A stretch of 64,000 bases of DNA from Thermoplasmatota archaeon (GCA_016928095.1 JAFGLL010000051.1:11779-75778); one strand, 5' to 3'. Positions 14,755 through 54,867 are shown, counted from the stretch's first letter. Notes: generated from the letters alone by a model not told the origin. A program made the numbers and translations.

Positions 14755-14972
14755 TCTAATGGTATGGGGGGTCAACTCGGTTGGGTATTTGAGTTGCTGG
14801 CTCCGGTCCAAGATCACCTCCATGTGAGATCTCTTTCATTGATGAACGTAGAAACATATAAATAGTATTGTAATGTTGAAACAAATCCGTTGGATAATAG
14901 CAATATCCGTGGTCTTTGAAAATTACTCGATAATGGTGTATCCATTCATAAGATATTAGGAGGGTGATGAGC

Positions 14973-29916: not shown

Positions 29917-32461
29917 CTGGATCGTGATGGGTCTCCCCATGCTTTAAACCTCTCGCCACATGGTTTTTAAAAAAGATACCAACCGCCACGGCAATAACGA
30001 TCATGATACACAAAACGATAACAATAATCAACAGTATCCCGCTTACTCCGTCGTCCTCTCCATTTTCCTTGATCCAAAACTGCACTTCCGCCTCCCAGGG
30101 TCCTTCATCCGGGCCGGAAATGTTCAGAATGAGTGATGAGGGAGCTTCCCTTCGCGGTCCCTCGATCCTGATCGATATGTTCAACGGGAAGAAGAGTTTC
30201 TGTATCGTTGAGGGTGTGATGGAGATAGAAAAGTTTTGGGGGAGCCCATCAACACGCAGGACAAGTCCGTCGAATTCCCCGTTCACAGGGGTCAGAACGA
30301 CCCAGAACTCCGAGCTTACTTTGCTATCTTCGGTATCGACATATCCGTAACCATTTGGGTCCAGGTCAATATCAAGTACAGCAGCGGGCGGGAGGACCGA
30401 AACAGTAAGATATGTTTCGACCATGATCACCCCCGATGTGCCCTTCATCTGAAGAAGATCATCTCCTACCCCGAGCACGACCTCGATGAATATGTCCACG
30501 GACCCTGTCGGTTGGATCACGTTCTTTGAAAGCACAATGGATATTCCAGGGACATCCGGATAGGTGGAGATGGTCACGTTGCCCTGGAAACCGTTCTCGG
30601 CTATGACGTATAACCGGACCGTTGCATTCCCGCCCTCGGGGATCGAGATCCTTGAGGTCTCGAGCTGTAATTTGAAGGTCGGTTCCCTCCAATCCTGAAC
30701 AGAGGCTTCGATGGCCACCGCCCGGTATGTCCCGTTCCCCCCATCAAGGATGATGAAGAACATGTACACCCTTACGGATATCCATCTCTCTGCAGACAGT
30801 ATTCCGGAGACCATGTTTATTCCAGAAGATACTGTAAGGATACCATCCAGGTTTTCGATATCAAGCCCCCTCGGTATCATTATTTTCGATAATCCCAGAA
30901 CGAATGGTTGTTCGTTATCCGAATAGATCTCAATGGGTAGATCGACCTGGCTGTCGGCATTTATCATCGCATCGATCCTGTGATCGACCGTTTGAAAAAC
31001 CTTGCTTTCACCTTCTATGTTGATCATCAACGATCTTATGCTGCTGCTCATTGAGGTGTTGGCGTATATCCGGACCTCCAAAGGTTGGTCCGTCGGAGAT
31101 CTTGCTTCTATCTCTAAGTATGAGATCGTACCGGATCCTACGGTAGTTGCGGGAATGGAAGCATTGATGTTCTCCGAAATTTCGAAGAGGGACAGTTCAA
31201 CTGATCCCTCATATCCCCCTCTCTTCTCCACAATGAATGGAACCCTGATCTTCTCACCAACGGATAAGGAGGTCTCTTCGAACGGGAGTATCAGTTCCGC
31301 CCCGGCGTCCTCCTGGAAGATCATGGTGACCCTTCCAAGATAGCTCAGGGAGAGCACTTCGTTCCCCTCGTATGCAGGGTCGATGTCAAAGATAGCCGTT
31401 CCCATGATGATGTACTCTTCCCGGTAGATCTCCCGGAAACGGAACCCGTCGCTATACCATATCAGTCCTACCCTGTTGTCGTAGGAGGCTATCGAAAGTG
31501 CGTTGCCGTCACCAAGATATCCGGTTTCCATGCCGTATATCAACTTTCCTTCGGCATGAACAATGGTCTTTGACCAGTTACCGTCCTTCAGATATACCTC
31601 CAATACATCGCCGTTGATGGTTGAAGCATAAATCTCATCACCGGGAATGGTAGGATCCAGGTCAACCACTGTCACGTCAGTGACCTGTCCTCCGACATCC
31701 ATTATCTCTTCCTGATTCCAGATATTCCCGTCGAAATAGGATATAAACAGTATCCCCCTTCCTCCGCCCAATACTACCTCGTTACCCGGTCGGTCGGTAT
31801 AGATGTCGGCTATCCAGCATGCTTCGAAGATATCGATGTCCGTGGCTATCGTGGTAGATACCCACGAGGCCCCGCTCCGGGAAAGCATCGTTGCCCTCTT
31901 CTGTTCTCCGACCACGACCATCTCTACCTGTTCGGTCCCGCCGACGAGTTCCCCGATATCCACCTCGTAGAGCCAGTCAGTGTCTTTCCACAGTATTGTT
32001 GATGACCACTTCCCGGATCCTTCATCGTAAGCTATGAGGTTCACGGCATATCTCTCATCCACGGCTATCAGTTCATCGCCCTCATCCTCGGGCAGAACAT
32101 CACCCGAATCAAGGGAGAACACCTGGGCTTTTTCACCGGCACCCCCGGAAAAGACGGAGGTATGGACCAGCGTCGATGTCCAGGACAGTCTGGACCCGTA
32201 TGTGACCACGACATTTCCGTTCTTGGAGCAGGTGGCCATTTCCGGACCGGGGTTGTTGGCCATCAGGTCGGCCGCTGTTGCCCGGTAGACGAGATCGTTC
32301 TCGTTATAGATCCTCTCGTTCAGATAGGGCAGATCATCAGGGCTCCTTGTAATGGCATCCTCATCGATGTTCATTTCTGCTTTACCTTCCAGGAGCAGGG
32401 CATGCATCGAGGTGAAAATGAGGCACAATAGCAGAAGATAGGTACATGCTCTGTCCTTCAT
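29831..32461 (-). CDS. Secreted or membrane-anchored beta-propeller (FG-GAP-like) plus Ig-like domain protein
   Basis: Signal peptide; about seven repeats of type D-[LIV]...[GP]-[DN]-E-hydrophobic; repeated beta-rich Ig-like blocks; C-terminal TM ILLIIVIVLCIMIVIAVAVGIFF. Confidence 0.7.
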   Translation of the reverse strand: MKDRACTYLLLLCLIFTSMHALLLEGKAEMNIDEDAITRSPDDLPYLNERIYNENDLVYRATAADLMANNPGPEMATCSKNGNVVVTYGSRLSWTSTLVHTSVFSGGAGEKAQVFSLDSGDVLPEDEGDELIAVDERYAVNLIAYDEGSGKWSSTILWKDTDWLYEVDIGELVGGTEQVEMVVVGEQKRATMLSRSGASWVSTTIATDIDIFEACWIADIYTDRPGNEVVLGGGRGILFISYFDGNIWNQEEIMDVGGQVTDVTVVDLDPTIPGDEIYASTINGDVLEVYLKDGNWSKTIVHAEGKLIYGMETGYLGDGNALSIASYDNRVGLIWYSDGFRFREIYREEYIIMGTAIFDIDPAYEGNEVLSLSYLGRVTMIFQEDAGAELILPFEETSLSVGEKIRVPFIVEKRGGYEGSVELSLFEISENINASIPATTVGSGTISYLEIEARSPTDQPLEVRIYANTSMSSSIRSLMINIEGESKVFQTVDHRIDAMINADSQVDLPIEIYSDNEQPFVLGLSKIMIPRGLDIENLDGILTVSSGINMVSGILSAERWISVRVYMFFIILDGGNGTYRAVAIEASVQDWREPTFKLQLETSRISIPEGGNATVRLYVIAENGFQGNVTISTYPDVPGISIVLSKNVIQPTGSVDIFIEVVLGVGDDLLQMKGTSGVIMVETYLTVSVLPPAAVLDIDLDPNGYGYVDTEDSKVSSEFWVVLTPVNGEFDGLVLRVDGLPQNFSISITPSTIQKLFFPLNISIRIEGPRREAPSSLILNISGPDEGPWEAEVQFWIKENGEDDGVSGILLIIVIVLCIMIVIAVAVGIFFKNHVARGLKHGETHHDPDEMERPHRRPAAPERFHGSRGGNDRIHH

Positions 32462-43232: not shown

Positions 43233-43247
43233 AGAGAGGTGAAAAGA

Positions 43248-44414
43248 ATGGGTATAATCGATAAGATGAAAGGGGGAAAGCCCAGCGTCGTGGGAGGGTC
43301 CACCTATCAGTGGGAGGACAAGGGAGAGGACGTGATATGGAAGATCCCCAAGAACATTGTATGGAACGACAACATAGTCGTGAAGGAAGATGAATATGCA
43401 ATATTCTTCAGGGACGGAAAGGCTCTCACGGTCTTCGACAGACCCGGGAGGTACGCACTGACCACCCAGAACATAATGACCTGGAAGCTTGCCGACAAGT
43501 TCCAGGACCTGACCGGCATCCGCCAGATCGGAGAGATATACTACCTCCAGAGGCGGGAGATGAGGGGCAAGTTCGGAACCAAGGAGCCCATAGCCTTCAG
43601 GGATTCCGATTTCGGGATGGTAAGGATACGCGTCTTCGGACAGTATTCCTACAAAGTGAAGGACCCGCTCCTCTTCATAACACAGTTCATAGGGACAGAG
43701 AGTAAAGAGACCACCGGACAGATAGTGGACTGGTTCAGGGACCAGATAGTGATGTCCCTCAACGACATCCTCGGGGAGCTCAAGAGAGACAAGAACATGG
43801 CCATCATAGACGTTCCGGCATATCTGGAAGAAATGGAGCAGATACTCCTTGCAAGGATAAAGGACGACACGGAGAGGTACGGTGTGGAGATATCGAAGAT
43901 CACCGGTCTTAACTTCAACCTGCCGGAAAAGGTCCAGGAAGCCATAGACAAACGCGGAGAGCTGCAGGCCCTCGGCGTGAACTACATGCAGTACCAGGCC
44001 GGACAGGCCATGGTAAAGGCCGCCGAGAACGAGGGAGCCGGAGGGAACATGGCGGGTATGGGTGTCGGTCTCGGAGCGGGTCTTGGTATGGGTTACGGGA
44101 TGACAGGTGCCGTGGGAGCGGGAATGGACCCCAACGCACAGAACCCGTGGGGTTCCCAGCAGCCCGGTGTCGCAGCGGGTAAGAAATGTCCCAAGTGCGG
44201 AACCGATGTTCCTGCCACGGCAAAGTTCTGCAATATATGCGGGGAGAACCTCTCCGGGGAGAAGCTTTGCATAAAATGCGGACAGCCTGTAGCCCAGGGT
44301 ACAAAATTCTGCTCCAACTGCGGCTCAAAGCAGACAATGGAATGTCCCAGCTGCAAGCAAGAGCTTTCATCGGGAGCGAAGTTCTGTCCGAACTGCGGTT
44401 TCAAGATGGGATAG
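43248..44414 (+). CDS. SPFH/band-7 domain protein (YdjI-like) with C-terminal zinc ribbons
   Basis: IVVKEDEYAIFFRDGK; PGRYALTT; KFGTKEPI; RVFGQYS; AENEGAGG; G-rich GLGAGLGMG; six CxxC pairs; GAGGTG SD. Confidence 0.88.
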   Translation: MGIIDKMKGGKPSVVGGSTYQWEDKGEDVIWKIPKNIVWNDNIVVKEDEYAIFFRDGKALTVFDRPGRYALTTQNIMTWKLADKFQDLTGIRQIGEIYYLQRREMRGKFGTKEPIAFRDSDFGMVRIRVFGQYSYKVKDPLLFITQFIGTESKETTGQIVDWFRDQIVMSLNDILGELKRDKNMAIIDVPAYLEEMEQILLARIKDDTERYGVEISKITGLNFNLPEKVQEAIDKRGELQALGVNYMQYQAGQAMVKAAENEGAGGNMAGMGVGLGAGLGMGYGMTGAVGAGMDPNAQNPWGSQQPGVAAGKKCPKCGTDVPATAKFCNICGENLSGEKLCIKCGQPVAQGTKFCSNCGSKQTMECPSCKQELSSGAKFCPNCGFKMG

Positions 44415-45212
44415 CTACTTCCTCTTGCCGAAGAAAGCCCTCTTCATATCGGAGAAGAACCCGCCGACCGACAGGTCAGGCGGGGGGATGTCCCCTCTTA
44501 TGACATTGCCGGTATTTCCGCAGACCAGTATCTGAAAAGGTGATCCGTTATAGGTGTAGTCGATCCTCCAAACAGGTGCATGCACGAACTCCACATCCTC
44601 GATCTCGAAGTCATGATCCATTTCGGAGACCTCGTTCACTTGGTCCATTATCAGGAACCTTTGATGGTCCTGGACCTCCACCTTTGTCATGTCCTGGGCA
44701 TCCTTCTCGTCGAACTCAGCATTCAAATATTTTGCCTTGGCCGGTATCTTCGAAAGGTTGAAATCCTCCTTTCCAGAAAGTGGTATCTCATATTCCTTTG
44801 TGGGGAATTTTGACCCCCTTCTGCCCAGAACCTTCCAGTAGTATTCCCGGTCCAGACTGCCTGACCTCTCTTCCCTTCCTCCACCTCTGGTAAAGAAACC
44901 CTTGTAACTGGTCCTCACGTTCGTATGAACGATGTAGAATGGGAGGAACACCTGCGATCTTCCGGTGATGATCGATCTGCTCCGAAGGTTCGATGGTTTC
45001 AGCGGTCCGTCACCCATCCAGGTCCTGACGATATCATCCACCTTCTTATTGTCGAAGTTTGATGGCAGTATAGAGTGCTCCAGGAAGAAGTCCTTGCCGG
45101 AGGCCACATTGAAGGCCGTCCCGCAGAAATCGCATGTGATTATGACCTCGCCCGCCTTGAGGGAGAGCGAGGCTCCACAGTTGTGACATTTGACATCCCG
45201 GATCAATCCCAT
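44415..45212 (-). CDS. Zinc-ribbon protein, YdjG-like
   Basis: CHNCGASL..CDFCGT; FLPFYIV; HAPVW..Y.Y.G..V.G.TG.V.G..P; stop abuts the SPFH stop. Confidence 0.7.
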   Translation of the reverse strand: MGLIRDVKCHNCGASLSLKAGEVIITCDFCGTAFNVASGKDFFLEHSILPSNFDNKKVDDIVRTWMGDGPLKPSNLRSRSIITGRSQVFLPFYIVHTNVRTSYKGFFTRGGGREERSGSLDREYYWKVLGRRGSKFPTKEYEIPLSGKEDFNLSKIPAKAKYLNAEFDEKDAQDMTKVEVQDHQRFLIMDQVNEVSEMDHDFEIEDVEFVHAPVWRIDYTYNGSPFQILVCGNTGNVIRGDIPPPDLSVGGFFSDMKRAFFGKRK

Positions 45213-45281
45213 GTCTACACATCCCTGATATTCTACACGACATCGATTAAGCATTATATATCCCTTAACGATTTTCCCACC

Positions 45282-46325
45282 ATGGCATCCATAACCACCC
45301 TCAAGATCAACTCGTACTTCTTCATGGGACTTCTGTTCCTTATTTTCGCTCTCTTCATTTTCGCCATCGGTGTGATAGTGGGTCTCGACCTTGTCCTGAC
45401 ATCCATCATATTCTTGCTGTTCACCGTATTCTATGTTCTGATATCCCCATGGATAGTAAAGCTCTCCTCAAGGGTCAGGTATCTGAAAAAAGGTGAGATC
45501 CCGTTCCTGGAAGAAAAGGTATCCAAACTGGCAAAGGAAGCAGAAATACCAATGCCAAAGCTCGGTTTAGTCGAGGACTCCACCCCCAATGCCTTCGTCT
45601 TCGGATTGACCCAGGGAGGTTCGACCCTGGCCGTCAACAGGGGGATCCTCACACTTCTCAATGATGGGGAAATGGAGGCTGTCCTGGCCCATGAGATAGG
45701 CCATATCAAGAATCGGGACTGTATGTACATGACGATCCTCTCCGTCCTGCCAACCCTTGCCATGTGGGGAATGCATATGCTGTTCATGGCAAGGTTCAGA
45801 CCAAGAGGAAGGGATGCCGGCAAGGTGATGCTGGCAATGATCCTGATAGGATTGGTATCCGCCGTGGTCTATTTCATTTCATCACTTCTCATAAAACGGC
45901 TTTCAAGGATCCGGGAATTCTACGCCGATGCATATTCAGCCCATATCACCAGTGATCCGCATTCGCTTGCATCCGCCCTCACAAAGATCGTTTACGGACT
46001 GTCCCTCGCTCCTGCAGAGGAGAAGGCGAAGGCCAACCTGAGGCAGTTCTATATAGGAGATGTCCAGAACGCTCACAGGGAGATCGACCGTATAAAACGC
46101 AACAGCTCGAAGTATGACCTGGACGGGGACGGTGTCATAGACGAGAACGAACTGGAGATCGCCATGTCGGACGAGGCGAACAGGAGTGCATGGGATAAGT
46201 GGGGAGGATTGTTCAGCACCCATCCACCGACCTTTAAAAGGATCCTTGCCCTGAAGGACCTCGAAAAGGATATGGACAGGGGCAATGTCAGGCAGGATGA
46301 CATATACGAAAAGGTGGAGTTCTGA
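45282..46325 (+). CDS. htpX: Zinc metalloprotease HtpX (M48 family) with EF-hand-like insertion
   Basis: PNAF; AVLAHEIGH; SRIREFYAD; LASALTKI; FSTHPP; two N-terminal TMs; DLDGDGVIDENE loop. Confidence 0.9.
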   Translation: MASITTLKINSYFFMGLLFLIFALFIFAIGVIVGLDLVLTSIIFLLFTVFYVLISPWIVKLSSRVRYLKKGEIPFLEEKVSKLAKEAEIPMPKLGLVEDSTPNAFVFGLTQGGSTLAVNRGILTLLNDGEMEAVLAHEIGHIKNRDCMYMTILSVLPTLAMWGMHMLFMARFRPRGRDAGKVMLAMILIGLVSAVVYFISSLLIKRLSRIREFYADAYSAHITSDPHSLASALTKIVYGLSLAPAEEKAKANLRQFYIGDVQNAHREIDRIKRNSSKYDLDGDGVIDENELEIAMSDEANRSAWDKWGGLFSTHPPTFKRILALKDLEKDMDRGNVRQDDIYEKVEF

Positions 46326-46405: not shown

Positions 46406-46687
46406 TCATTTTTCTTTTCTCAACCAGATAAGGAATGCCAGGACCGCGATGTCCATGATATCCTCTTTCTTCCCTTTTCGTTCAGTGACCTTGTCCCCCA
46501 TATATACGATGATCTGATCGTACAATCGATCCTCGATATGTGAGATCCTCTCTTCATTGTATATCTCGAGATACCTGTCGTTGTGCTCGGTCAAGGTCGC
46601 TCTGAATTCATCGAAAAATCCGTCCATACCGGTCCCGATGTGGTCCAGTGGTTTTTTATCCATATGCACCATCGGGTAAATATGCAA
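46406..46687 (-). CDS. Small hypothetical protein
   Basis: 93-aa ORF with protein-like composition filling the gap between htpX and the coiled-coil gene. Confidence 0.5.
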   Translation of the reverse strand: MHIYPMVHMDKKPLDHIGTGMDGFFDEFRATLTEHNDRYLEIYNEERISHIEDRLYDQIIVYMGDKVTERKGKKEDIMDIAVLAFLIWLRKEK

Positions 46688-46781: not shown

Positions 46782-48425
46782 TCAGTGGGATAGCTTCCCT
46801 TTCTTTCCGCATTTTGGACAGGTGATGATGATAGGTCTCTTTGCGCTCTTGACCAGGATCTTCTCACTGCATCCCTTGCATTTCACTATCTTTGGTTTGT
46901 AATCGTCCTGGGAAGGTTCGGGTTCTTCTTCCTTTTCTTCCTCTGGAGGCTCCTCATCCAGATCTTCCTTCCCATGATCTCTTATGGGCTTCCTGATCAT
47001 GAACTGATTATCTTCATCTTCTTCCTTTTCCAAGATCGGGGACCTTCTCTTCTTCGGAACTGATATCTCCTCTTCCTCTTCATCTTCCTCGATGATCTTG
47101 ACCTTTTTCTTCATGGGTCTCTCGGACCTCTGCGACGGTATATCCTTTTCAAGCTCATAGATCCTGTCATTGAGGAGACGGATCTTCTTTTCATGGTCCT
47201 CAACTGTTATGTAACCGTCCTTTTTTCTCTCGAAGTCGTTCAATTCACCTTTCAGGGATGATTTCTCATTTTCAATGGCCCTGAGCTCTTCCTCTATCTC
47301 TTCCTTCATCTCGATTGACCTTGCTCGTTCCTTCTCGAAGAGCTTCTTCTCGTTCTCGATGTCCCTTCTGGCTGTCATGATCTCTTCTCGTTTCTTGTCG
47401 ATCTCTATCTGTTCCTTGATCAACGAATCCTTTTCGGATTTGAAGGCCTTGACCTCCTCCTTCAGCTCTATCTGTCTGTTCTCCAGTTTCTTCTCCCAGG
47501 ATTCAAGCTTTTCTTTGCCTTTCTCATATTCCCTGAACTCTATCCTGAACTTGTTGTATCTCTCCTGGAAATCATCCCATTCCCTCTCGTGTGATTTCCT
47601 GGTAGCATTGAATTCCTCGAAGTCCTGATCGAAAAGCTCTCTCTTTCGATCTATCGAATCGCTTTCCTTGTCAAGGAGTATTCTTTCCTTTTTCAGCTTT
47701 GCCTCTCTTTCTTTAAGTTCATCTTCGAACTTCTTGAATTCCTGCTTCTCCTCGAAGAACCTGTTCTCCCTATCTTCCTGTTCGACCTTCTCCCTTTCAA
47801 TGTTCTCCTTTTCCCTGACGATGTCGGACTTCTGTGAATCGAAGGTTGCCTTCTCCAACTCGATATCCCTCTTCATCTTCAGAAACTCGTCCCTTTCCTC
47901 TTCAAGGGATTTGATCTCCCTGAGGATGTCCTCCCTCTTGTCCATCAATTCCTTACGTTCCCTGCTGAGGCGCGCTTCCCTGGATTCAAGATCTTCCTTG
48001 TCGGCCTGGATGGAGATAAGGTTAGCCTTCACGAACTTCTCCATGAGCTCCAGCACTTTCGTTTCCTCGTCCACAAGGTCTCTTCTCTTTCTATTGACGG
48101 AATCATAGATGCTCTCGATCTCATCTTTCTTACCAAGGACGGCCTTCAACTCCTGGTCGAGGCGATACTGGTCAAGGTCCATCTCCTTTTTTCCGATGGG
48201 TTGCGATCTAACCTCAACAGCCTCCTCATCGATCTCCTCGATATCCACCTCCTCATGCATCTCTTCTGGTTCCGGTTCTTCCTCCACAACGACCGCTTTT
48301 TTCTTCGGGACGACGATCTCTTCTTCATCGTCCTCGAACTCGATCTTGGGAGCCATCTTCCTGCCCTTCTTTCTGATTTTTACATCATCATCGTCGGACC
48401 AGTCCACTTTGGATCTCTTAGGCAT
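46782..48425 (-). CDS. Long charged coiled-coil protein with C-terminal zinc ribbon
   Basis: About 330 aa of E/K/R-rich heptad-like sequence; no Walker motifs; ends CKGC..SAKRP..CPKCG; GGGGTG SD before ATG 48425. Confidence 0.8.
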   Translation of the reverse strand: MPKRSKVDWSDDDDVKIRKKGRKMAPKIEFEDDEEEIVVPKKKAVVVEEEPEPEEMHEEVDIEEIDEEAVEVRSQPIGKKEMDLDQYRLDQELKAVLGKKDEIESIYDSVNRKRRDLVDEETKVLELMEKFVKANLISIQADKEDLESREARLSRERKELMDKREDILREIKSLEEERDEFLKMKRDIELEKATFDSQKSDIVREKENIEREKVEQEDRENRFFEEKQEFKKFEDELKEREAKLKKERILLDKESDSIDRKRELFDQDFEEFNATRKSHEREWDDFQERYNKFRIEFREYEKGKEKLESWEKKLENRQIELKEEVKAFKSEKDSLIKEQIEIDKKREEIMTARRDIENEKKLFEKERARSIEMKEEIEEELRAIENEKSSLKGELNDFERKKDGYITVEDHEKKIRLLNDRIYELEKDIPSQRSERPMKKKVKIIEEDEEEEEISVPKKRRSPILEKEEDEDNQFMIRKPIRDHGKEDLDEEPPEEEKEEEPEPSQDDYKPKIVKCKGCSEKILVKSAKRPIIITCPKCGKKGKLSH

Positions 48426-48607
48426 GATATTCACCCCTTTATGAACGGAACGCACTATGCTATTCAAACCTTCATATAACAAGGATGTTATATATCTTTT
48501 TTCAGTGAATAACATCCATTGAGGATCGAGATATCGTTACACTTATCATCTTATTCCACCTATGGCTTCACCGATGTCCGATAATAAGGAAAAGGTTTTC
48601 ATGTCAT

Positions 48608-51600
48608 GTGACATGTGGTGAACGAGGAGTGTTGGACCGCTTGGCAGAATATCTGAACGGGCGTTATACCGATCCGAATGGTTTGGGCCGAAATATCGGG
48701 TTAGATCCCCGGGAAGGGATAGTCGTAGAATCCTCTCTGAGGCCCCTTATTGATGAAAAGAGCGGTTATGTCGTCCTGGGAAGAAGCAGCTCCGCTCACA
48801 AGAAATGGAGAAGGAAGGGATTGCTTCAGATCGGTGCTGTTGGGGAGTTGCAGGAAACCGGTGATAACCTTTTCGGAAGGGAGGTTTACATTGATGCAGC
48901 CTTCCCGCACATCATGTTCATCTGCGGTAAGAGAGGAAGCGGAAAATCCTATACCCTTGGTATCTTTGCAGAAGAGCTCATCAGGTCAGCCATAGGTGTC
49001 GGTGTCATACTCGTCGACCCTATCGGTATCTTCTGGTCCCTGAAGACGGAGAACACTTCCAGGTCCGAGAGAAAAGCACTTGAGAAATGGGGTTTGAACC
49101 CTACCTCGTTCCCTGAGGTAAAGGTCCTTGCGCCCGGAAACGACATCGGCATGCTGCCCGCCAATTGTGATGGACCCTATACCATAGGGGTCAGTGAGAT
49201 GACGGCAGAGGATTGGTGTCAGGTCTTTGACATGGACAGGTTCAAGACCCAGGGACTTCTTGTCGGGACCGCCATAGATCAGGTGAGATCGGGATACAAG
49301 GCCCTGATAGATGAAGCAATGATCGATATTCCATCCAGACCCCAACTTTTCTCTATAGGGGATATCATCCGATGTATGGAATTCTCATCGACGATCATCA
49401 GCAAGACAGGGGGATACAACCCGCAGACCAGGAGATCGGTGATCGCCAGGTTCACCGCTGCCGCGGGCTGGGGAATATTCAGCATCGAAGGCACACCACT
49501 CAGAGAACTCACATCACCGAACAGGGTGACCGTTCTTGATGTCAGCGATACGAACCTGGGAGATTCAAAACGAAGCCTCATCACCGGGATCATCGCCCGA
49601 AAGGTTCTCGAGGGAAGGATCAGATCGGCAAGGAAAGAGGAACATCACGGTTTCGATGAGACGGACCCCGAAATGATCCCACTGACATGGCTCCTGATAG
49701 ATGAAGCACATATCATCCTTCCACACAACAAACAGACACCTGCTTCGGAAGCTCTGATAGAATATGCCAAACAGGGCAGGAGACCGGGATGCGCCATGAT
49801 CCTTGCAACCCAGAGACCCGCCTCAACATCCGATGAGATCCTTTCACAGGTGGACATTCTTCTTGGCCACAACCTCGCCCTGGAGGACGACATGTCGGCC
49901 TTGAGGAGGAGGGTCCCGGCAAAACTCCCCCAGGAGTTCGCTGTTTCGGATTTCATCAGGGGTATACCCGTCGGGACCGCTATCGTCGCTGACCAGAAGA
50001 CACAGCAGAGGTCTTTCCTTGTTAGATTGAGACCACGATTATCCCATCATGCAGGGAGTTCCGCAATGCCAAAAGCATTTCAGGAGAAGAAAGGCAGAAT
50101 GAAGAGACCGATCCCTCTCACGGGAACTTATATTCCCAGGAATATGCCATCCGTCCTTGATCCTACCCCGGTCCCACGTTCTATCGATGACATAGGCGAA
50201 ATCGAAGAGATAGATGAAGATCCTTCTGTATCTGTTTCTCCTGTTTCGGAGGTGATCGCAGATGTCCCGGAAGATCTGGATATCATACCCGAAGGTCCTG
50301 TACCGGACCTTCCTTGGGGTTCGACGATCATTCTCAGGGACAGGTCGAAAGAGGACCTGGAAATGTTTTTGGGGAACGTTGAAGGTGCAACCGGGTTCAT
50401 GCTACTATCTGCCGATGATCCATCAAGGTTAAGTGTTCCATCAGGACCCAAGAGGGTGGACCGCTGGTTCTCGGAAACCGATTCATGTCCGATCCGGGAC
50501 CCAAACGGTCCGGAGATGGCTCTTTCCGCTATAGAGAACACCATCGGAGAAACAAGCTCATGGGTCGTGGTTATCGATCATGTCGAGAACATGTTCAAGG
50601 AACACCCCAAGGAAAAGATCAGGGGTATGTTGAAAGCACTGCATGACAGGGTATTCGAGGGGAAGCATCTTCTGGTGATCAGATGGGATGGTGAAGACCG
50701 GGAAGGAATGCTTCAAGGGATCTTTTCCGTCAAGGATGGGGTCGAAAAAGGACCGGGGCCGAGCATGAGGGACCGAAAGGAAGGCCTCATGCCCACCAAG
50801 ATCGTCCAAAACGGCTCATTGAGGGATGAAGAGCTCAGATGGATGTGCAACGTCATGGGACTTCCAACGGATGGCAACGATACAGAACTGCTGAACAGGT
50901 TGCTGGAATCAGGAAAGGGTATCCTTAACGAAAGCAGCGGGGATAATGTCAATATCGACCTGTTAAAACAGGTGATGCATGAGTCGACAAGGGCCAGAGA
51001 GGAGAACAATAGACTTCTTCAGAGGATCAAGGAGCTCGAATCGGAGATAGGTGTGGATACCCCCGCAGAACCTTTGAGAGAAATGCAAGTTGCTGAAAAA
51101 GGTATCAAGAAGGATAGGAAACTCGTGGTTGTTTGGGAAGATGAGGAGCAGCAACAGGGAAAGGTCGAGCAGTTCATCCAGGAAGTGGAAGACCTGAAGA
51201 GTGAGATAGAAAACGGGCCGATCGAAGGCTCTCCCGCAGAATTCAGTGACACCCTCTTTTCAAAATTGATGAACAAACTCGATGAGGAAAAGCTTGAGAA
51301 CCGAGAACGCCTGAAAAGGCTTGAGGAAATTCTCCAGAACGAGATGGATTCCTTCAGGGATGAGCTCGAATCTCAGAGAAAGAAAATGACAGCATCACGC
51401 AGGATACCAAAGCTCAGGGTCATCAAGGAAAAGCCTCCCCATATGGAACACACTGATGTGAAGAACAGGGTCCTGAAAAGGAAGGTCCTGAAAAGGGGGG
51501 AGGAAGTGGCGGCGGTATCCCCAAGAATAGAGACAAACCAAGCACTGGATATCGGGAAAAGGAACCTGAAAAGAAGTATCTTCAGGGGGCCAAAGGAATC

Positions 51601-52264
51601 CATTGATGATATCATACCCTATAACATATTGCTTTATCGATTTCTTGTAGGTTACAGAGGAGGATTGAGAAGGTCCGACAGGGAATCCGATGTGTTCATT
51701 GATTCCATTACGGGAGAGATCGTGGAACAGGGTAGGACCGGGCTCAGGAGGAGCGAGGGCCTGCCATGCCTCCTCAGGATGACCGATCTGGAGATGGACG
51801 TTTTCGCAGTATTGACCACATCACCGAAAGAGCCGTCATGGATATCCAAAGCTTCCGGCATAGACGTTGCTCGGGTTAAAAGGTCTCTGTCATCTCTCGA
51901 GAAAAAAGGACTTGTAAGGAGGGTCCGAATAGAAGGTAACCTTGACCTTTTTTCGATAGGGGACAATATCAAGATCCCTTCAAGACCTTGGGTGAGGGAC
52001 CATGGATTTGAACCAGCTTTCGTGATATGTAAAGGTGAGAGGATACTGACCCCGAGGATAACGGTTAATGATGCACGGACCGTGATCGAGAGATTATCTC
52101 GCCAGATAGATATCATAGAACAGGATACCGTTAGATATCCGATCCATGTGATAAAGATCAGGGGTGAGGGTCGAACTAGATATATCGCCGTAGATGGATT
52201 CGGGGGCAGGTTGGACAGAAGGATCTCCAATATCCTCAAAAACATCATCGAGGGCGGCAATTAG
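48608..52264 (+). CDS. HerA/FtsK-superfamily ATPase (DUF87/COG0433-like) fused to DUF835-like, SAP-like, coiled-coil and wHTH modules
   Basis: GKRGSGKSYT (Walker A); LVDPIG; LLIDEAH (Walker B); ILATQRP; VVIDHVENMF; EELRWMCNVMGLPTDGNDTELLNRLL; KRSLSSLEKKGLV. Confidence 0.85.
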   Translation: MTCGERGVLDRLAEYLNGRYTDPNGLGRNIGLDPREGIVVESSLRPLIDEKSGYVVLGRSSSAHKKWRRKGLLQIGAVGELQETGDNLFGREVYIDAAFPHIMFICGKRGSGKSYTLGIFAEELIRSAIGVGVILVDPIGIFWSLKTENTSRSERKALEKWGLNPTSFPEVKVLAPGNDIGMLPANCDGPYTIGVSEMTAEDWCQVFDMDRFKTQGLLVGTAIDQVRSGYKALIDEAMIDIPSRPQLFSIGDIIRCMEFSSTIISKTGGYNPQTRRSVIARFTAAAGWGIFSIEGTPLRELTSPNRVTVLDVSDTNLGDSKRSLITGIIARKVLEGRIRSARKEEHHGFDETDPEMIPLTWLLIDEAHIILPHNKQTPASEALIEYAKQGRRPGCAMILATQRPASTSDEILSQVDILLGHNLALEDDMSALRRRVPAKLPQEFAVSDFIRGIPVGTAIVADQKTQQRSFLVRLRPRLSHHAGSSAMPKAFQEKKGRMKRPIPLTGTYIPRNMPSVLDPTPVPRSIDDIGEIEEIDEDPSVSVSPVSEVIADVPEDLDIIPEGPVPDLPWGSTIILRDRSKEDLEMFLGNVEGATGFMLLSADDPSRLSVPSGPKRVDRWFSETDSCPIRDPNGPEMALSAIENTIGETSSWVVVIDHVENMFKEHPKEKIRGMLKALHDRVFEGKHLLVIRWDGEDREGMLQGIFSVKDGVEKGPGPSMRDRKEGLMPTKIVQNGSLRDEELRWMCNVMGLPTDGNDTELLNRLLESGKGILNESSGDNVNIDLLKQVMHESTRAREENNRLLQRIKELESEIGVDTPAEPLREMQVAEKGIKKDRKLVVVWEDEEQQQGKVEQFIQEVEDLKSEIENGPIEGSPAEFSDTLFSKLMNKLDEEKLENRERLKRLEEILQNEMDSFRDELESQRKKMTASRRIPKLRVIKEKPPHMEHTDVKNRVLKRKVLKRGEEVAAVSPRIETNQALDIGKRNLKRSIFRGPKESIDDIIPYNILLYRFLVGYRGGLRRSDRESDVFIDSITGEIVEQGRTGLRRSEGLPCLLRMTDLEMDVFAVLTTSPKEPSWISKASGIDVARVKRSLSSLEKKGLVRRVRIEGNLDLFSIGDNIKIPSRPWVRDHGFEPAFVICKGERILTPRITVNDARTVIERLSRQIDIIEQDTVRYPIHVIKIRGEGRTRYIAVDGFGGRLDRRISNILKNIIEGGN

Positions 52265-52322
52265 ATTAGGAAAAGGTTTTATCCAAAGACCGGTTGGCCT
52301 TAATCAGGGCAGGTGCAGATCG

Positions 52323-53237
52323 TTGGCAAGGAGAAGGATAGTCCACGAGGAAGAGCCGGAGGCCGAGAAGGAGAAGAGACCATCCTTCAAACCAACGGAA
52401 TTCAATGAGACCGAATTCCTGCAGACCGAGAACAAATCTGCAAAGATGATCTACATCTCTCTTGGGGTTGCGGTGGTCGCAGGGATAGTCTCGTTCGGAC
52501 TTATGAGACTTTTCTATGCTCTGGATACGGGTTTGCATTTCATTATTCCTGTGGTATCACCGGTTGCATTCGCTGTCCTTGTGATATATCTATTTCACAG
52601 GTTCGGGATCAATGTAAGGACCCTGGAATGGAAGAAATGGCTCGAGAACGGTTTCATGTACCTGCTTGCATGGTTCGTCATTTGGATGCTTTCCATGAAC
52701 CCTCCGATAAGCGACTTCTCGGATCCGCAGATACAGGAGCCCGTGATGGAGCTCAAGACCGTTGAGGGACGCAACTTCACCTATTTTCTGGGAGCGCTCT
52801 ATATCAACAATGAGGTCACCGATTCCTATACACCGAGCGTGGAGCTAGATGATATCGACCAGGTCCTGATATATTCGGTCCTCACGGACAACAACAAGGT
52901 CCACAGCGATATAGAGGTCTATTACAAATTGGATGGATCAGACGTTTTGATACAGGACCCTGCATCCGTTGGGATATATGTTGAAAAGGACATCCTGTTC
53001 GAACCGAAAGAAGACCTCGAGGACAGTATAGACGAAACATGGCTCCAGACGGACCCGAAAGCATGGGATGATGATCTTTGGACCGTTCTTTTGGAGATGA
53101 AGGAAGTGAGGAACGGAACACTGTCTTGGAACAACGGGTCAGCATTGAATGAGCTTGACATGAAGATCGTTTACAGAGCGTGGGATTCCTGGGGCAACGA
53201 TGCGGACAGGGAGTTCACTTTCAAGATAGCTCTTTGA
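52323..53237 (+). CDS. Hypothetical membrane protein (3-4 N-terminal TMs, C-terminal extracellular beta domain)
   Basis: TTG start with AGGTG SD; hydrophobic helices; same strand and 58 nt downstream of the HerA-like gene. Confidence 0.65.
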   Translation: MARRRIVHEEEPEAEKEKRPSFKPTEFNETEFLQTENKSAKMIYISLGVAVVAGIVSFGLMRLFYALDTGLHFIIPVVSPVAFAVLVIYLFHRFGINVRTLEWKKWLENGFMYLLAWFVIWMLSMNPPISDFSDPQIQEPVMELKTVEGRNFTYFLGALYINNEVTDSYTPSVELDDIDQVLIYSVLTDNNKVHSDIEVYYKLDGSDVLIQDPASVGIYVEKDILFEPKEDLEDSIDETWLQTDPKAWDDDLWTVLLEMKEVRNGTLSWNNGSALNELDMKIVYRAWDSWGNDADREFTFKIAL

Positions 53238-53316
53238 GGTCCTGTCATGGAAATCGGTCCATAAAGCTTAATACAGGCAAAGGTAGTAATCCGATGTAAG
53301 CCAGGTGGTTCCATTA

Positions 53317-54867
53317 ATGACCTCGAAGAATACCAAAGGGATCGACAATACGGTAACCGAAGAGGATTGGGACCTTTGGGAAGAGGAGGATGACATCATA
53401 GACGATGATGAGGAAGAAGAGGAGACCCCTGATGCCATCGAGGAACCCGATAGGAAGGTTCCTGACAAAGGAAAGCGGAAAAAAAAGCCGGGAAGTAATG
53501 GTATGGACCCGAAAGCAAAGAAAGGGATGATATGGGCGGTCAGGGTATTCGTCATCATTATCGTGGTAATTCTTCTTTTTGCACCCGGTTTTCCTTTTCA
53601 TGACATCAGGGAGACGACCGGTATCAATTCATTGAAGAACCTCATGAAGCCATTTTTGCCCTTCCCGGAATGGACGAACGTAAGCGTTACGTTGGCATAT
53701 GATGTCGTGGTTTCCGGCGGTAGAGCGACCGAAATAGAGATCCATGTAGCAACCCCATTCGATATTCCCTTCGACCCCGGTCCGGGGAAGACAAGGGATT
53801 ATTTGATACAGGATGTACAGAACGTTCAGTTCACCCCGTCCAGTAATATGGCGATCAATGATTGGAACACCGAAAAGAACGTCATTTCCGGATGGGTCAT
53901 CAACAATATCAGAGGAGAATTCAGGTATGAGGTCACCATCGACATGACCCTCCACGCATACCAATGGGACATAGACGAAGAAGATTCGGGCACTCTTCAG
54001 GAGATACCCGTTGAATATGTTGACCGATACTGTGTGAACGCTTGGGCCGTCAAGGACGATGACGGAACGATCGAGCATTACAGATACGAGCCTCTTGACC
54101 CTGTGATCAAAAGAACCGCGGAACAATTGACCAGCGATGAACCGACCGTCCTTGGGAAAGTAAAGGCGATTTTTGAATGGATGGAGGACCATTTCAACTA
54201 TACTTCTCCCGAAGAGAGACAGAGGGACAGATTGGTCTACGGTGATTATCCCAAATGGGCAACGGGGTGTCTCTCCGATTGGTACGGTGACTGCGACGAT
54301 CAATCGTTGCTGATGGCATCTCTATGCAGGGCTGTCGGCATACCTGCCTGGTTGGAGATCGGTTATCTTTATGACCCGAGCCCTACCAATGAGGACCCTA
54401 CCCAGAAATGGGGAGGCCACGGTTGGTTCAGCGTTCTCATACCGCTCAAGGATAGCGACGATTTCGTTATAGCGAACATAGACCCTGTCAACCACGAGTT
54501 CCTGTTCCGGGACCCGTACAGGTTCACCGATTGGGTCGATGATGGAACATACATGAACGTGAACGGAGAGGATGTCTACAATCTTGACTACTACTACAAT
54601 TATTTCAGTTCATCTGCACCGTCCGGTGTGGTCGTTGATCCGAGCCCCAGCACCATAAGCAACAGTTTCGAGAGGCACGGATCGATCAAGGTCTATACGG
54701 ACAGACCGCTGACCGATGGAAATCTACCAGGGACACAACAGCAGTTTTCCAGCCTCCCTACCCCGTCCCCACTTCTACTGGCACCCCTATCACTTCTATT
54801 TCTGGCGGTTCCGATCAGAAGGGCTTTTCTGAAGAGGGACCAATGTTCAGATGGTAGTGAACATTAA
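53317..54867 (+). CDS. Membrane-anchored transglutaminase-like domain protein
   Basis: GDCDDQSLLMASLCRAVGIPA (Cys); GHGW (His); IDP (Asp); acidic N-terminus followed by a TM. Confidence 0.85.
   Translation: MTSKNTKGIDNTVTEEDWDLWEEEDDIIDDDEEEEETPDAIEEPDRKVPDKGKRKKKPGSNGMDPKAKKGMIWAVRVFVIIIVVILLFAPGFPFHDIRETTGINSLKNLMKPFLPFPEWTNVSVTLAYDVVVSGGRATEIEIHVATPFDIPFDPGPGKTRDYLIQDVQNVQFTPSSNMAINDWNTEKNVISGWVINNIRGEFRYEVTIDMTLHAYQWDIDEEDSGTLQEIPVEYVDRYCVNAWAVKDDDGTIEHYRYEPLDPVIKRTAEQLTSDEPTVLGKVKAIFEWMEDHFNYTSPEERQRDRLVYGDYPKWATGCLSDWYGDCDDQSLLMASLCRAVGIPAWLEIGYLYDPSPTNEDPTQKWGGHGWFSVLIPLKDSDDFVIANIDPVNHEFLFRDPYRFTDWVDDGTYMNVNGEDVYNLDYYYNYFSSSAPSGVVVDPSPSTISNSFERHGSIKVYTDRPLTDGNLPGTQQQFSSLPTPSPLLLAPLSLLFLAVPIRRAFLKRDQCSDGSEH

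What the first reader, a model, noticed from the sequence alone, without database searches (positions are those of the whole stretch)
48608..52264. Unusual HerA fusion: ATPase, DUF835-like, SAP-like, coiled coil, wHTH, with no nurA/mre11/rad50
Seen: an intact HerA/FtsK ATPase (~48608-50050); an acidic Pro linker; a DUF835-like inactive RecA-fold (~50300-50730); a SAP-like motif EELRWMCNVMGLPTDGNDTELLNRLL (~50820-50910); a coiled coil; and a C-terminal region containing a TrmB-like wHTH. Known: repair HerA is about 500-600 aa and is encoded with nurA-mre11-rad50; stand-alone HerA/VirB4-like ATPases act in DNA transfer (Ced) and defence; SAP and wHTH bind DNA. It is divergent from the coiled-coil gene and followed by two membrane proteins. 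Inference: core motor of an undescribed DNA-translocation, segregation or transfer machine.
Basis: partly seen in the sequence, partly recalled or inferred. Interest (0 to 1): 0.75.

Follow-up and report, generated by a model that had tools for sequence, protein, structure and literature searches.

The report
Archaeal HerA-type motor with DNA-binding tail
A 1218-residue archaeal protein joins an intact HerA-type ring ATPase to a dead KaiC-like domain, a SAP motif, long helices and a conserved winged-helix tail, and is always paired with a coiled-coil zinc-ribbon gene; it belongs to a large uncharacterised family that probably moves or organises chromosomal DNA.

Summary
ORF 48608-52264 (+) encodes 1218 aa. 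It holds an intact HerA/DUF87 ATPase, a Pro/acidic linker, a P-loop-less DUF835 (iKaiC) RecA-fold domain, a SAP motif and three long helices. The C-terminal TrmB/MarR winged helix lies between two PepSY-like beta-sheet units.

Pfam misses DUF835 and SAP in the query itself. Both are recovered in 28/32 and 13/32 aligned homologues, by profiles built without the query's clade, and by an AlphaFold model whose best fold matches are BcsE, KaiC, Rho and RecA.

The architecture is not unique. About 55 of the 120 listed homologues, all named ones Thermoplasmatota, share the full layout. The C-terminal module occurs in more than 1000 protein clusters, nearly always behind a HerA-type ATPase.

Synteny with the two membrane genes is whole-region collinearity within one clade. 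The divergent coiled-coil/zinc-ribbon gene is truly coupled: 21 of 21 informative loci have it beside the fusion.

There is no nurA, mre11, rad50, defence effector, integrase or conjugation gene nearby.

Best reading, unproven: a chromosomal, self-targeting DNA translocase that works like FtsK or TraB. Novelty: new variant of a known kind.

The parts
48608..52264 (+). Whole gene: 1218-aa HerA-type ATPase fusion (stop codon included)
   Evidence: ORF list. A 100%-identical public protein, P0001, is known, and full-length homologues at 43-70% identity occur in Thermoplasmatota MAGs.
48725..50077 (+). HerA/FtsK-superfamily ATPase domain (residues ~40-490)
   Evidence: Pfam DUF87 42.4 bits and a weak HerA_C match. 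PDB sequence matches to HerA chains 9x1l, 8xau and 4d2i. It is the most conserved part: 82-85% identity in close relatives and 30-58% in distant ones.
48926..48949 (+). Walker A, GKRGSGKS (residues 107-114)
   Evidence: Located; invariant in 32 homologues.
49691..49711 (+). Walker B, LLIDEAH (residues 362-368)
   Evidence: Located. D365, E366, A367 and H368 are invariant.
49805..49819 (+). ATQRP motif (residues 400-404), matching the (S/T)QRP motif of FtsK/HerA ATPases
   Evidence: Located. A400-P404 are invariant. The motif aligns with 'SQRP' in solved HerA chains.
50078..50302 (+). Pro/acidic flexible linker (residues 491-565)
   Evidence: 12 Pro and 16 Asp/Glu in 75 residues. Length and sequence vary among homologues. 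pLDDT is below 50 where it was modelled.
50303..50695 (+). DUF835 / inactivated KaiC-like RecA-fold domain without a P-loop (residues 566-696)
   Evidence: Clade-excluded HMM scores 52.5 bits against a shuffle maximum of 2.1. PF05763 hits 28/32 homologues. AF2 core has pLDDT about 90. Foldseek finds BcsE, KaiC, Rho and RecA. DUF835 is labelled iKaiC in PMC5847659.
50810..50920 (+). SAP motif (residues 735-771)
   Evidence: Clade-excluded HMM scores 46 bits against a shuffle maximum of 7.8. PF02037 hits 13/32 and SAP_new25 hits 11/32 homologues. The model shows helix-linker-helix. Weak PDB profile hits to DEK and Hcc-1 SAP domains.
50942..51400 (+). Three long charged helices, probable coiled coil (residues 779-931)
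   Evidence: AF2 helices at 779-814, 846-869 and 883-931. Heptad test gives overall P 0.0085.
51401..51496 (+). Basic linker (residues 932-963; 12 Lys/Arg in 32 residues)
   Evidence: Composition count.
51497..51757 (+). C-module part A: beta-alpha-beta-beta unit, PepSY-like (residues 964-1050)
   Evidence: AF2 pLDDT 93.8 for residues 950-1218. Weak Pfam PepSY hit, E 0.0062, 17.3 bits, below the cut-off of 24. Conserved D..TGE motif.
51761..51958 (+). Winged helix-turn-helix, TrmB/MarR type (residues 1052-1117)
   Evidence: Pfam TrmB 29.6 bits, above the cut-off. Foldseek finds MarR, ZitR and FabT with E about 1e-3 and rmsd about 2 A. PDB profile hit to AdcR.
51959..52261 (+). C-module part B: second PepSY-like unit plus terminal helix (residues 1118-1218)
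   Evidence: AF2 model. Conserved YPYY...G.R..IDA.TG..D motif. Weak PepSY hit in homologue P0128.
46782..48425 (-). Partner gene: acidic N-terminus, ~330-aa coiled coil, C-terminal CxxC...CPxCG zinc ribbon. The ORF as listed runs to 48515, but the conserved start MPKRSKVDW is at 48425.
   Evidence: Orthologue alignment with invariant zinc-ribbon residues. 21/22 species-level loci with this gene have the HerA fusion adjacent and divergent, and the 22nd is truncated.
48426..48607 (.). Shared divergent intergenic region with A/T-rich TATA-like stretches (TTATATAT at 48488; ATAATAAGG at ~48582)
   Evidence: Read directly from the sequence. Promoter function was not tested.
52194..53237 (+). Downstream EMC6_arch-like membrane protein. 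It is a collinear neighbour and a specific link is not supported. The true start is probably later than 52194.
   Evidence: Pfam EMC6_arch 29.9 bits. Present only in the close clade, absent in L105 and L107 and in more distant relatives.
53305..54867 (+). Downstream transglutaminase-like membrane protein. It is a collinear neighbour and a specific link is not supported.
   Evidence: Pfam Transglut_core 56 bits. Conserved only within the close clade.

Best explanation
The gene encodes a chromosomally inherited, housekeeping-type DNA motor.

By homology, residues ~40-490 should form a hexameric HerA/FtsK-superfamily ring that hydrolyses ATP and pulls double-stranded DNA through its pore. A long flexible tether hangs from that ring and carries the protein's own DNA-targeting and partner-binding parts.
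- The dead KaiC-like (DUF835) domain probably serves as an oligomerisation or docking platform.
- The SAP motif and the C-terminal winged helix, framed by two PepSY-like sheets, probably bind DNA and load or orient the motor.
- The helical segments probably pair with each other or with the strictly co-occurring coiled-coil/zinc-ribbon protein encoded divergently upstream.

The most likely role is handling of chromosomal DNA: segregation, clearing or organisation. In working principle it resembles FtsK (motor plus gamma winged helix) or Streptomyces TraB (FtsK-like motor plus C-terminal winged helix).

Shown here: the domain identities, the intact ATPase motifs, family conservation and the gene pairing. 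Inferred: hexamer formation, DNA translocation, DNA binding, the partner contact and the cellular role.
For: ATPase motifs are intact and invariant, and the ATPase is the most constrained part of the protein. Sequence matches are to HerA-clade families and solved HerA hexamers.

Two independent DNA-binding modules are present: SAP and a TrmB/MarR wHTH. The wHTH-containing C-module is the near-universal partner of this ATPase clade. It matches 1110 clusters at E<=1e-3, and all seven full-length ones checked carry a DUF87 ATPase in front of it. That pattern argues that DNA recognition is integral to the motor's job.

The genomic setting is core chromosome, with DNA ligase, MCM, DnaK/J/GrpE, FEN1 and PFOR in the same window. 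Gene order is stable across a whole clade. The neighbours of distant relatives are unrelated housekeeping genes, with no nuclease, Sir2, integrase or conjugation genes. This is the pattern of vertical, housekeeping inheritance.

The coiled-coil/zinc-ribbon partner is strictly coupled, 21/21 informative loci.

From my own knowledge rather than a test here: FtsK's gamma winged helix reads KOPS, TraB's C-terminal wHTH reads clt repeats, and Iyer et al. 2004 proposed HerA-type ATPases as archaeal counterparts of FtsK.
Against: There are no biochemical or expression data. The one metatranscriptome from the same study showed nothing.

Neither the fusion nor its partner has a membrane anchor or any septum-targeting feature. 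There is no conserved link to division or segregation genes. SepF lies 5 kb away, but only as part of clade-wide collinearity.

Every named homologue comes from a MAG, and no cultured archaeon appeared among them, so the function is not universal. The DPANN relatives are bare ~430-aa ATPases without the C-module.

TrmB/MarR winged helices are typical transcription-factor domains. The coiled-coil call rests on a modest heptad signal.
Confidence: 0.4

Rival explanations
1. It is a DNA-repair or recombination helicase. On this reading a HerA paralogue processes DNA ends or stalled forks together with a nuclease encoded elsewhere, and the SAP and wHTH domains recruit it to damaged DNA.
For: The closest named families and solved structures are HerA proteins. 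The window also carries replication and repair genes: ligase, MCM and FEN1.
Against: Scores are 30-35 bits against equivalog cut-offs of 800-970 for repair HerA. No nurA, mre11 or rad50 lies in the window or next to any relative examined. The N-terminal region before Walker A is shorter than I would expect for a HerA HAS-barrel, which was not modelled here. No nuclease domain is fused or adjacent.
Confidence: 0.2
2. It is an ATP-dependent regulator or chromatin factor. The wHTH and SAP would bind specific chromosomal sites. The ATPase together with the iKaiC domain would act as a switch or remodeller, in the way KaiC-like hubs act in archaeal signalling, rather than as a processive translocase.
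For: The wHTH is of TrmB/MarR/Lrs14 type. DUF835/iKaiC occurs as an output domain of archaeal response regulators (PMC5847659). The gene mostly stands alone, with no operon partner.
Against: HerA/FtsK-type ring ATPases are not known as transcription-factor switches (my own knowledge). The ATPase is far more conserved than the DNA-binding parts. The C-module is tied to motors of several HerA subclades, some with TrwB-like similarity.
Confidence: 0.15
3. It is an anti-phage or anti-plasmid defence ATPase, of the HerA-effector or MADS-like kind, that senses foreign DNA.
For: The best PADLOC hit is mad8 at 68 bits, and there are many antiphage HerA model hits at 28-48 bits. PDB hits include the Sir2-HerA and DUF4297-HerA systems.
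Against: These are superfamily-level scores, 30-36 bits against cut-offs of 800-850 for the antiphage HerA equivalogs. No neighbour hits any PADLOC model. No Sir2, DUF4297, nuclease or methyltransferase gene lies nearby, whereas MADS is an 8-gene operon. The position is a stable core-genome one, not an island.
Confidence: 0.1
4. It is the motor of a DNA transfer or uptake apparatus across the membrane, working with the downstream EMC6-like and transglutaminase-like membrane proteins. This would make it Ced-, VirB4- or coupling-protein-like.
For: Two membrane proteins follow the gene in the window and in the close clade. Divergent C-module-bearing relatives show weak TrwB and T4SS coupling-protein similarity.
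Against: The membrane genes are absent next to the fusion in L105 and L107 and in all more distant relatives. They sit in a collinear block together with queuosine-biosynthesis genes. There are no pilin, secretin-like or other transfer genes. VirB4 similarity is 19 bits against a cut-off of 590. The fusion has no TM segment.
Confidence: 0.1

Closest known systems
HerA (repair HerA of the HerA-NurA-Mre11-Rad50 operon; Pfam DUF87/HerA_C)
   Same: It belongs to the same ATPase clade by sequence. DUF87 scores above the gathering cut-off. The Walker A, Walker B and (S/T)QRP motifs are present, and the C-terminal half aligns with solved HerA hexamers.
   Different: It scores 30-35 bits against equivalog cut-offs of 800-970. 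There is no nurA, mre11 or rad50. It is about twice as long, with ~730 extra residues of iKaiC, SAP, helices and the wHTH module. The N-terminus before Walker A is short.
FtsK/SpoIIIE and Streptomyces TraB (motor plus C-terminal winged helix that reads chromosomal or plasmid DNA motifs)
   Same: The working logic is the same: a ring ATPase of the FtsK-HerA superfamily, then a long flexible linker, then a C-terminal winged helix.
   Different: No Pfam FtsK_SpoIIIE or Ftsk_gamma match was listed at E<=0.1. There is no N-terminal membrane domain. The wHTH is of TrmB/MarR type and is embedded between two PepSY-like units. The protein also carries iKaiC and SAP domains.
DUF835 / iKaiC proteins of Methanomicrobia and Thermoplasmata (for example REC-DUF835 response regulators)
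   Same: It has the same P-loop-less KaiC-like domain.
   Different: Here the domain is fused behind a HerA motor rather than a receiver or PAS domain. In the query's own clade it has diverged below Pfam detection.
Antiphage HerA systems (Sir2-HerA, DUF4297-HerA) and MADS mad8
   Same: The ATPase cores are homologous, with the best PADLOC and PDB hits.
   Different: There is no effector partner, the gene is not in a defence island, and the scores lie far below family thresholds.
ArlH-ArlI of the archaellum (a KaiC-like protein docking on a hexameric ATPase)
   Same: The combination is the same: a KaiC-like module with a hexameric P-loop motor. Weak FlaH/ArlH similarity appears in the DUF835 region (PDB 4yds, E 0.15).
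   Different: This is an analogy only. The motor family differs (HerA, not a secretion ATPase). The KaiC-like part is fused and lacks a P-loop.

Membership tests
FtsK-HerA superfamily / Pfam DUF87 (HerA central domain) | Pfam PF01935 match above the gathering score | tested here: met
   42.4 bits against a cut-off of 23.2, residues 91-331. 32/32 homologues match.
FtsK-HerA superfamily / Pfam DUF87 (HerA central domain) | Intact Walker A, Walker B and (S/T)QRP motifs | tested here: met
   GKRGSGKS at 107-114, LLIDEAH at 362-368 and ATQRP at 400-404, all invariant in the family.
FtsK-HerA superfamily / Pfam DUF87 (HerA central domain) | Hexameric ring and DNA translocation | not testable with these tools
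   This needs an oligomer structure and biochemistry. No multimer prediction was available.
Repair HerA (NCBIfam NF040819, NF040937) | Score at or above the equivalog cut-off | tested here: not met
   29.7 bits against 970, and 34.8 bits against 800.
Repair HerA (NCBIfam NF040819, NF040937) | Encoded with nurA, mre11 and rad50 | tested here: not met
   None was found among the large ORFs of the window or next to the relatives examined.
Repair HerA (NCBIfam NF040819, NF040937) | N-terminal HAS-barrel | not tested
Antiphage HerA (NF042943, NF042944; PADLOC HerA models) | Score at or above the equivalog cut-off and an adjacent Sir2, DUF4297 or nuclease effector | tested here: not met
   30-36 bits against cut-offs of 800-850. 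PADLOC HerA models score 48 bits or less, and the neighbours give no PADLOC hit.
MADS defence system (mad8) | Eight-gene mad1-mad8 operon | tested here: not met
   The mad8 model scores 68 bits over residues 84-423, but no other mad gene is adjacent. The operon is described in bioRxiv 10.1101/2023.03.30.534895.
FtsK/SpoIIIE | FtsK_SpoIIIE ATPase family match, N-terminal membrane domain and Ftsk_gamma domain | tested here: not met
   No such Pfam family was listed at E<=0.1. No TM-like window was found. Only a weak PHROG FtsK/SpoIIIE-like hit, E 1e-3.
VirB4 / Ced / T4SS coupling proteins | Family-level score and neighbouring transfer genes | tested here: not met
   VirB4_plasma scores 19.2 bits against 590. 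No transfer genes lie nearby.
DUF835 (PF05763, iKaiC) | Pfam match in the protein itself | tested here: not met
   No hit at E<=0.1 in the query. The four members without a hit are most likely the query and its closest relatives: three of P0002-P0005 lack PF05763 in the precomputed annotation.
DUF835 (PF05763, iKaiC) | Homology to DUF835-bearing regions and a RecA/KaiC-like fold without a P-loop | tested here: met
   Clade-excluded HMM scores 52.5 bits. 28/32 homologues hit PF05763 at the aligned position. Foldseek finds BcsE, KaiC and RecA. No GxxxxGK[ST] motif is present.
SAP (PF02037) | Pfam match, or homology plus a helix-extended-helix structure | tested here: inconclusive
   The query gets no Pfam hit. 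Against that, 13/32 (SAP) and 11/32 (SAP_new25) homologues hit at the aligned position, the transitive HMM scores 46 bits, and the model shows two helices. It is very likely a SAP motif, though formally below Pfam detection in this sequence.
TrmB/MarR winged helix-turn-helix | Pfam match above the cut-off and a wHTH fold | tested here: met
   TrmB scores 29.6 bits against 25.6. Foldseek finds MarR-family chains with rmsd about 2 A over ~65 residues.
PepSY (PF03413) | Pfam match above the cut-off | tested here: inconclusive
   17.3 bits against 24 for query residues ~973-1036 and 20 bits in P0128. The secondary-structure order and the D..TGE motif fit. No fold match could be obtained because the wHTH dominates the searches.

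The most novel reading that the evidence does not exclude
The fusion and its obligate coiled-coil/zinc-ribbon partner form a previously unrecognised two-protein chromosome-partition or DNA-clearing system of FtsZ-dividing Thermoplasmatota, which would be a functional stand-in for FtsK. The winged-helix/PepSY module would read polar chromosomal motifs to orient a HerA-type pump. The wider ATPase-plus-C-module family (more than 1000 clusters) would be its general archaeal form.
Probability: 0.2. Interest if true: 0.8.

Novelty: new variant of a known kind. Interest (0 to 1): 0.55.

Why it matters
How FtsZ-dividing archaea clear and segregate chromosomal DNA without FtsK is still open. HerA-type ATPases have long been suspected, but the characterised ones act in end resection or in phage defence.

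This family shows a HerA-clade motor that carries its own DNA-recognition module. It is inherited as a core chromosomal gene and has one strictly coupled structural partner. That gives a concrete two-gene candidate that can be expressed and assayed.

It also defines a new, confidently folded three-part module (PepSY-like, wHTH, PepSY-like) that marks more than a thousand uncharacterised archaeal ATPase clusters. It adds a new context for the dead KaiC-like DUF835 domain.

If the function turned out to be regulatory or defensive instead, the architecture would still be a new way of coupling a ring ATPase to DNA recognition.

Tried and rejected
- Direct Pfam and NCBIfam scans of the query do not find DUF835 or SAP. 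The issue was settled through homologues.
- A genome scan seeded with the single protein P0039, meant to find cultured hosts, returned one fragment only.
- Cluster look-ups gave no organism or useful names, and showed that the short 'stand-alone' C-module hits are gene fragments.
- Literature searches returned nothing on this architecture: DUF835+HerA; DUF835; HerA+Thermoplasmatota+SAP; DUF87+archaea+winged helix; FtsK-HerA. Iyer et al. 2004 is not held.
- Expression: the only RNA run of the source study holds none of the sequence, and the contig-based read lay was uninformative.
- I looked for a split arrangement, with the ATPase and the C-module as neighbouring genes, in DPANN loci. None was found.
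- I considered and rejected these memberships: repair HerA, antiphage HerA, MADS, FtsK/SpoIIIE and VirB4/Ced (see the membership table).
- I rejected the idea that the small 93-aa ORF (46406-46687) belongs to the unit. It has no relative in any locus.

Full report
**Observation.** The window carries an uninterrupted ORF at 48608-52264 (+) of 1218 aa. An identical protein is already in public collections as a 1210-aa gene call on a 102-kb contig (P0001). The sequence comes from a sediment metagenome. The surrounding 64 kb is ordinary archaeal core chromosome: ATP-dependent DNA ligase, MCM, GrpE-DnaK-DnaJ, FEN1, PFOR and queuosine genes. The nearest relatives are Thermoplasmatota MAGs, including 'EX4484-6' genomes.

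**Domain parse.**
- ATPase. Pfam places DUF87 (HerA central domain) at residues 91-331, 42.4 bits against a cut-off of 23.2, with a weak HerA_C match at 358-463 and TrmB at 1059-1107 (29.6 against 25.6). NCBIfam and PDB sequence searches find only HerA-clade relatives, both repair HerA and antiphage HerA. These cover the C-terminal half of the ATPase and score 20-36 bits, far below the equivalog cut-offs of 800-970. Walker A (GKRGSGKS, 107-114), Walker B (LLIDEAH, 362-368) and ATQRP (400-404) are present and invariant in 32 aligned homologues.
- DUF835 and SAP. Pfam does not detect these in the query. PF05763 hits 28 of 32 aligned homologues (best E 1.9e-31), PF02037 hits 13 and SAP_new25 hits 11, all at the aligned positions. 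To avoid circularity I built HMMs from the homologues without the query and its four closest relatives. They hit query residues 566-696 at 52.5 bits and 735-771 at 46 bits, whereas 500 shuffles of those segments reached at most 2.1 and 7.8 bits.
- Model of residues 545-960. An AlphaFold2 model (mean pLDDT 73.5, about 90 in the folded core) shows a beta-alpha-beta domain at 573-693. It also shows a helix-linker-helix at 740-770 and three long helices at 779-814, 846-869 and 883-931, separated by disordered stretches. Foldseek matches the core to the degenerate RecA-like domain of BcsE (E 7e-5) and then to KaiC, Rho, RecA and Rad51.
- Inactivity of the KaiC-like domain. The region has no P-loop. 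DUF835 is listed as 'iKaiC', inactivated KaiC, in Galperin's census of archaeal two-component systems (PMC5847659).
- Linker and helices. The 491-565 linker has 12 Pro and 16 acidic residues. The helices show only a modest heptad signal, overall P 0.0085.

The C-terminal 255 residues are one conserved three-part module.
- An AlphaFold2 model of residues 950-1218 is very confident (pLDDT 93.8, pTM 0.87). It shows a beta-alpha-beta-beta unit, then the winged helix, then a second similar unit with a terminal helix.
- Both units carry a 'D..TG' motif. They give weak PepSY hits: 17.3 bits in the query and 20 bits in P0128, against a cut-off of 24.
- Fold searches against PDB and BFVD match only the winged helix (MarR family). 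Nothing matches the module as a whole.
- A profile of this module, searched against 1.84 billion representative proteins, finds 1110 clusters at E<=1e-3 and 80 at E<=1e-30. The module sits at the C-terminus of proteins that carry a DUF87/HerA-type ATPase. Several divergent ATPase subclades are represented, some with weak TrwB-like similarity. The short apparent 'stand-alone' hits that were looked up (P0121, P0128) are gene fragments from short contigs.

**Family structure.** Domain HMMs run over the 120 listed homologues give the following.
- All 120 have the ATPase.
- 89 have the C-module.
- 55 have DUF835 and 46 have SAP. These are the long forms of 1100-1650 aa; the named ones among them come from Thermoplasmatota or Thermoplasmata MAGs.

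In the genome scan, Hadarchaeota, Micrarchaeota and Iainarchaeota forms of ~700-730 aa are ATPase plus C-module; only the Hadarchaeota ones match the query's own C-terminus directly by tblastn. The Asgard forms of ~880 aa have an extra ~245-residue N-terminus and no C-module. Woese-, Aenigm- and Nanoarchaeota forms are bare ~430-aa ATPases with no C-module within 8 kb. The scan found 501 relatives among species-representative genomes.

The window's protein is thus the fully elaborated version of a widespread, unnamed archaeal family. Public annotation says only 'DUF87', 'DUF835' or 'helicase HerA domain-containing protein'. No paper in the searchable library describes the architecture.

**Gene neighbourhood.**
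- Close clade. In relatives whose ATPase is 66% or more identical to the query, the whole block is kept: coiled-coil gene, fusion, EMC6-like, transglutaminase-like, QueD, QueC, QueE, ZPR1, SepF. Because it includes unrelated housekeeping genes, this is collinearity, not evidence of a machine.
- Distant relatives. In relatives at 58% identity or less, including a complete 3.58-Mb Thermoplasmata genome, none of the window's neighbours is found. Their neighbours are unrelated: TPR, RDD, M14 peptidase, SfsA, ABC ATPase, Mur ligase, YdjM, amidohydrolase and PAPS reductase.
- The exception. The upstream divergent gene has a conserved N-terminal MPRK.KVEW peptide, acidic low-complexity stretches, a ~330-residue coiled coil and an invariant C-terminal CxxC...CPxCG zinc ribbon. 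Its true start is probably at 48425 rather than 48515. It is also divergently paired with the fusion in two lineages (L038/L107 and L077/L105). There the ATPase is only 45-46% identical, DUF835 is absent and all other neighbours differ.
- Reciprocal test. I scanned species-representative genomes with the coiled-coil protein alignment. This gave 22 loci, all Thermoplasmatota. Twenty-one have the fusion immediately adjacent and divergent, and the last is cut at the contig end.

The real unit is therefore two genes sharing a ~180-bp divergent intergenic region with A/T-rich TATA-like stretches. The two membrane proteins are not part of it.

**Mechanism.**
- Shown: an intact, strongly constrained HerA-clade ATPase; a dead KaiC-like domain; SAP and wHTH modules; long helices; flexible linkers; a strictly coupled coiled-coil/zinc-ribbon partner; a core-genome, vertically inherited setting; and no nuclease, defence-effector, integrase or transfer genes.
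- Inferred: the ATPase forms a hexameric ring that translocates dsDNA, as HerA and FtsK do. The wHTH module and SAP bind DNA and load or orient the motor. The iKaiC domain and helices mediate assembly or contact with the partner.
- Closest working analogues: FtsK (motor, linker, gamma winged helix that reads KOPS) and Streptomyces TraB (FtsK-like motor with a C-terminal wHTH that reads clt repeats). These come from my own knowledge and were not tested here. The protein fails the membership tests for both. It has no FtsK_SpoIIIE or Ftsk_gamma match and no membrane domain.
- Confidence: about 0.4 that this is a chromosomal DNA translocase acting in segregation, clearing or organisation.
- Rivals: a repair helicase with an unlinked nuclease (0.2), an ATP-dependent regulator or chromatin factor (0.15), defence (0.1) and trans-membrane DNA transfer with the downstream membrane proteins (0.1). 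In PADLOC the best hit is mad8 of the 8-gene MADS system at 68 bits. This is superfamily-level similarity, with none of the other genes present.

**Limits.** There are no activity data. Expression evidence is absent. The N-terminal 90 residues (HAS-barrel question) were not modelled. The PepSY assignment is below threshold. The phyletic distribution was sampled, not exhaustively profiled.

**Verdict.** This is a new variant of a known kind, a HerA/FtsK-superfamily ATPase with a new and widespread architecture. Interest is moderate to high, 0.55.

Noticed in passing
window 44415-45254 (-): A 279-aa protein with an N-terminal zinc ribbon and two weak copies of the same hairpin motif as the second PepSY-like unit of the HerA C-module (FLPFYIVHT..., HAPVWRIDYTYNGSPFQILVCGNTGNVI). 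The C-module HMM scores E 1e-4 within the window. It is not syntenic with the fusion in relatives.
   Followed up: partly
window 14964-17174 (+): DnaK/Hsp70 of 736 aa carries a C-terminal extension with two zinc-ribbon-like matches (HypA-like at 590-622; LysW/Zn_ribbon_4 at 703-734). This is an unusual tail for Hsp70.
   Followed up: no
window 43239-44414 (+): An SPFH/Band-7 protein is fused to three C-terminal zinc ribbons (DZR, Zn_Ribbon_1) after a Gly/Ala-rich linker.
   Followed up: no
window 45075-46325 (+): An M48 (HtpX-like) membrane peptidase has an EF-hand-like insert (DLDGDGVIDENE; weak EF-hand_1 hit, E 9e-4).
   Followed up: no
window 6901-9591 (+): An 896-aa protein combines CARDB repeats with two C-terminal winged-helix domains (HVO_0163-type HTH and HTH_20/MarR). 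It looks like a surface or membrane-tethered transcription factor.
   Followed up: no
window 29831-32461 (-): An 876-aa ORF has no Pfam family at E<=1e-5.
   Followed up: no
window 52194-52264: The listed ORF of the EMC6-like gene overlaps the 3' end of the fusion by 71 nt. Relatives start ~60-110 nt after the stop, so the true start is probably further downstream. Likewise the coiled-coil ORF probably starts at 48425, not 48515.
   Followed up: partly
proteins P0177, P0198, P0226 and others (~505-560 aa): This is a 'mini' subfamily: a ~270-residue abbreviated DUF87 ATPase joined directly to the same PepSY-wHTH-PepSY module. One member is annotated by its source, evidently wrongly, as 'protein tyrosine phosphatase'.
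   Followed up: partly
proteins P0078-P0108 (Asgard, Thor-, Heimdallarchaeota; ~880 aa): Relatives with 42-46% identical ATPase domains carry an extra ~245-residue N-terminal region and a ~190-residue C-terminus that does not match the C-module. One cluster is labelled Zixibacteria, which may be a binning error or a transfer.
   Followed up: no
window 48608-52261, residues 84-423: The strongest defence-library match is mad8 of the MADS system at 68 bits, higher than any HerA defence model. The strongest PHROG is an unknown-function family (phrog_7035, 60 bits), followed by a terminase large subunit at 37 bits.
   Followed up: partly
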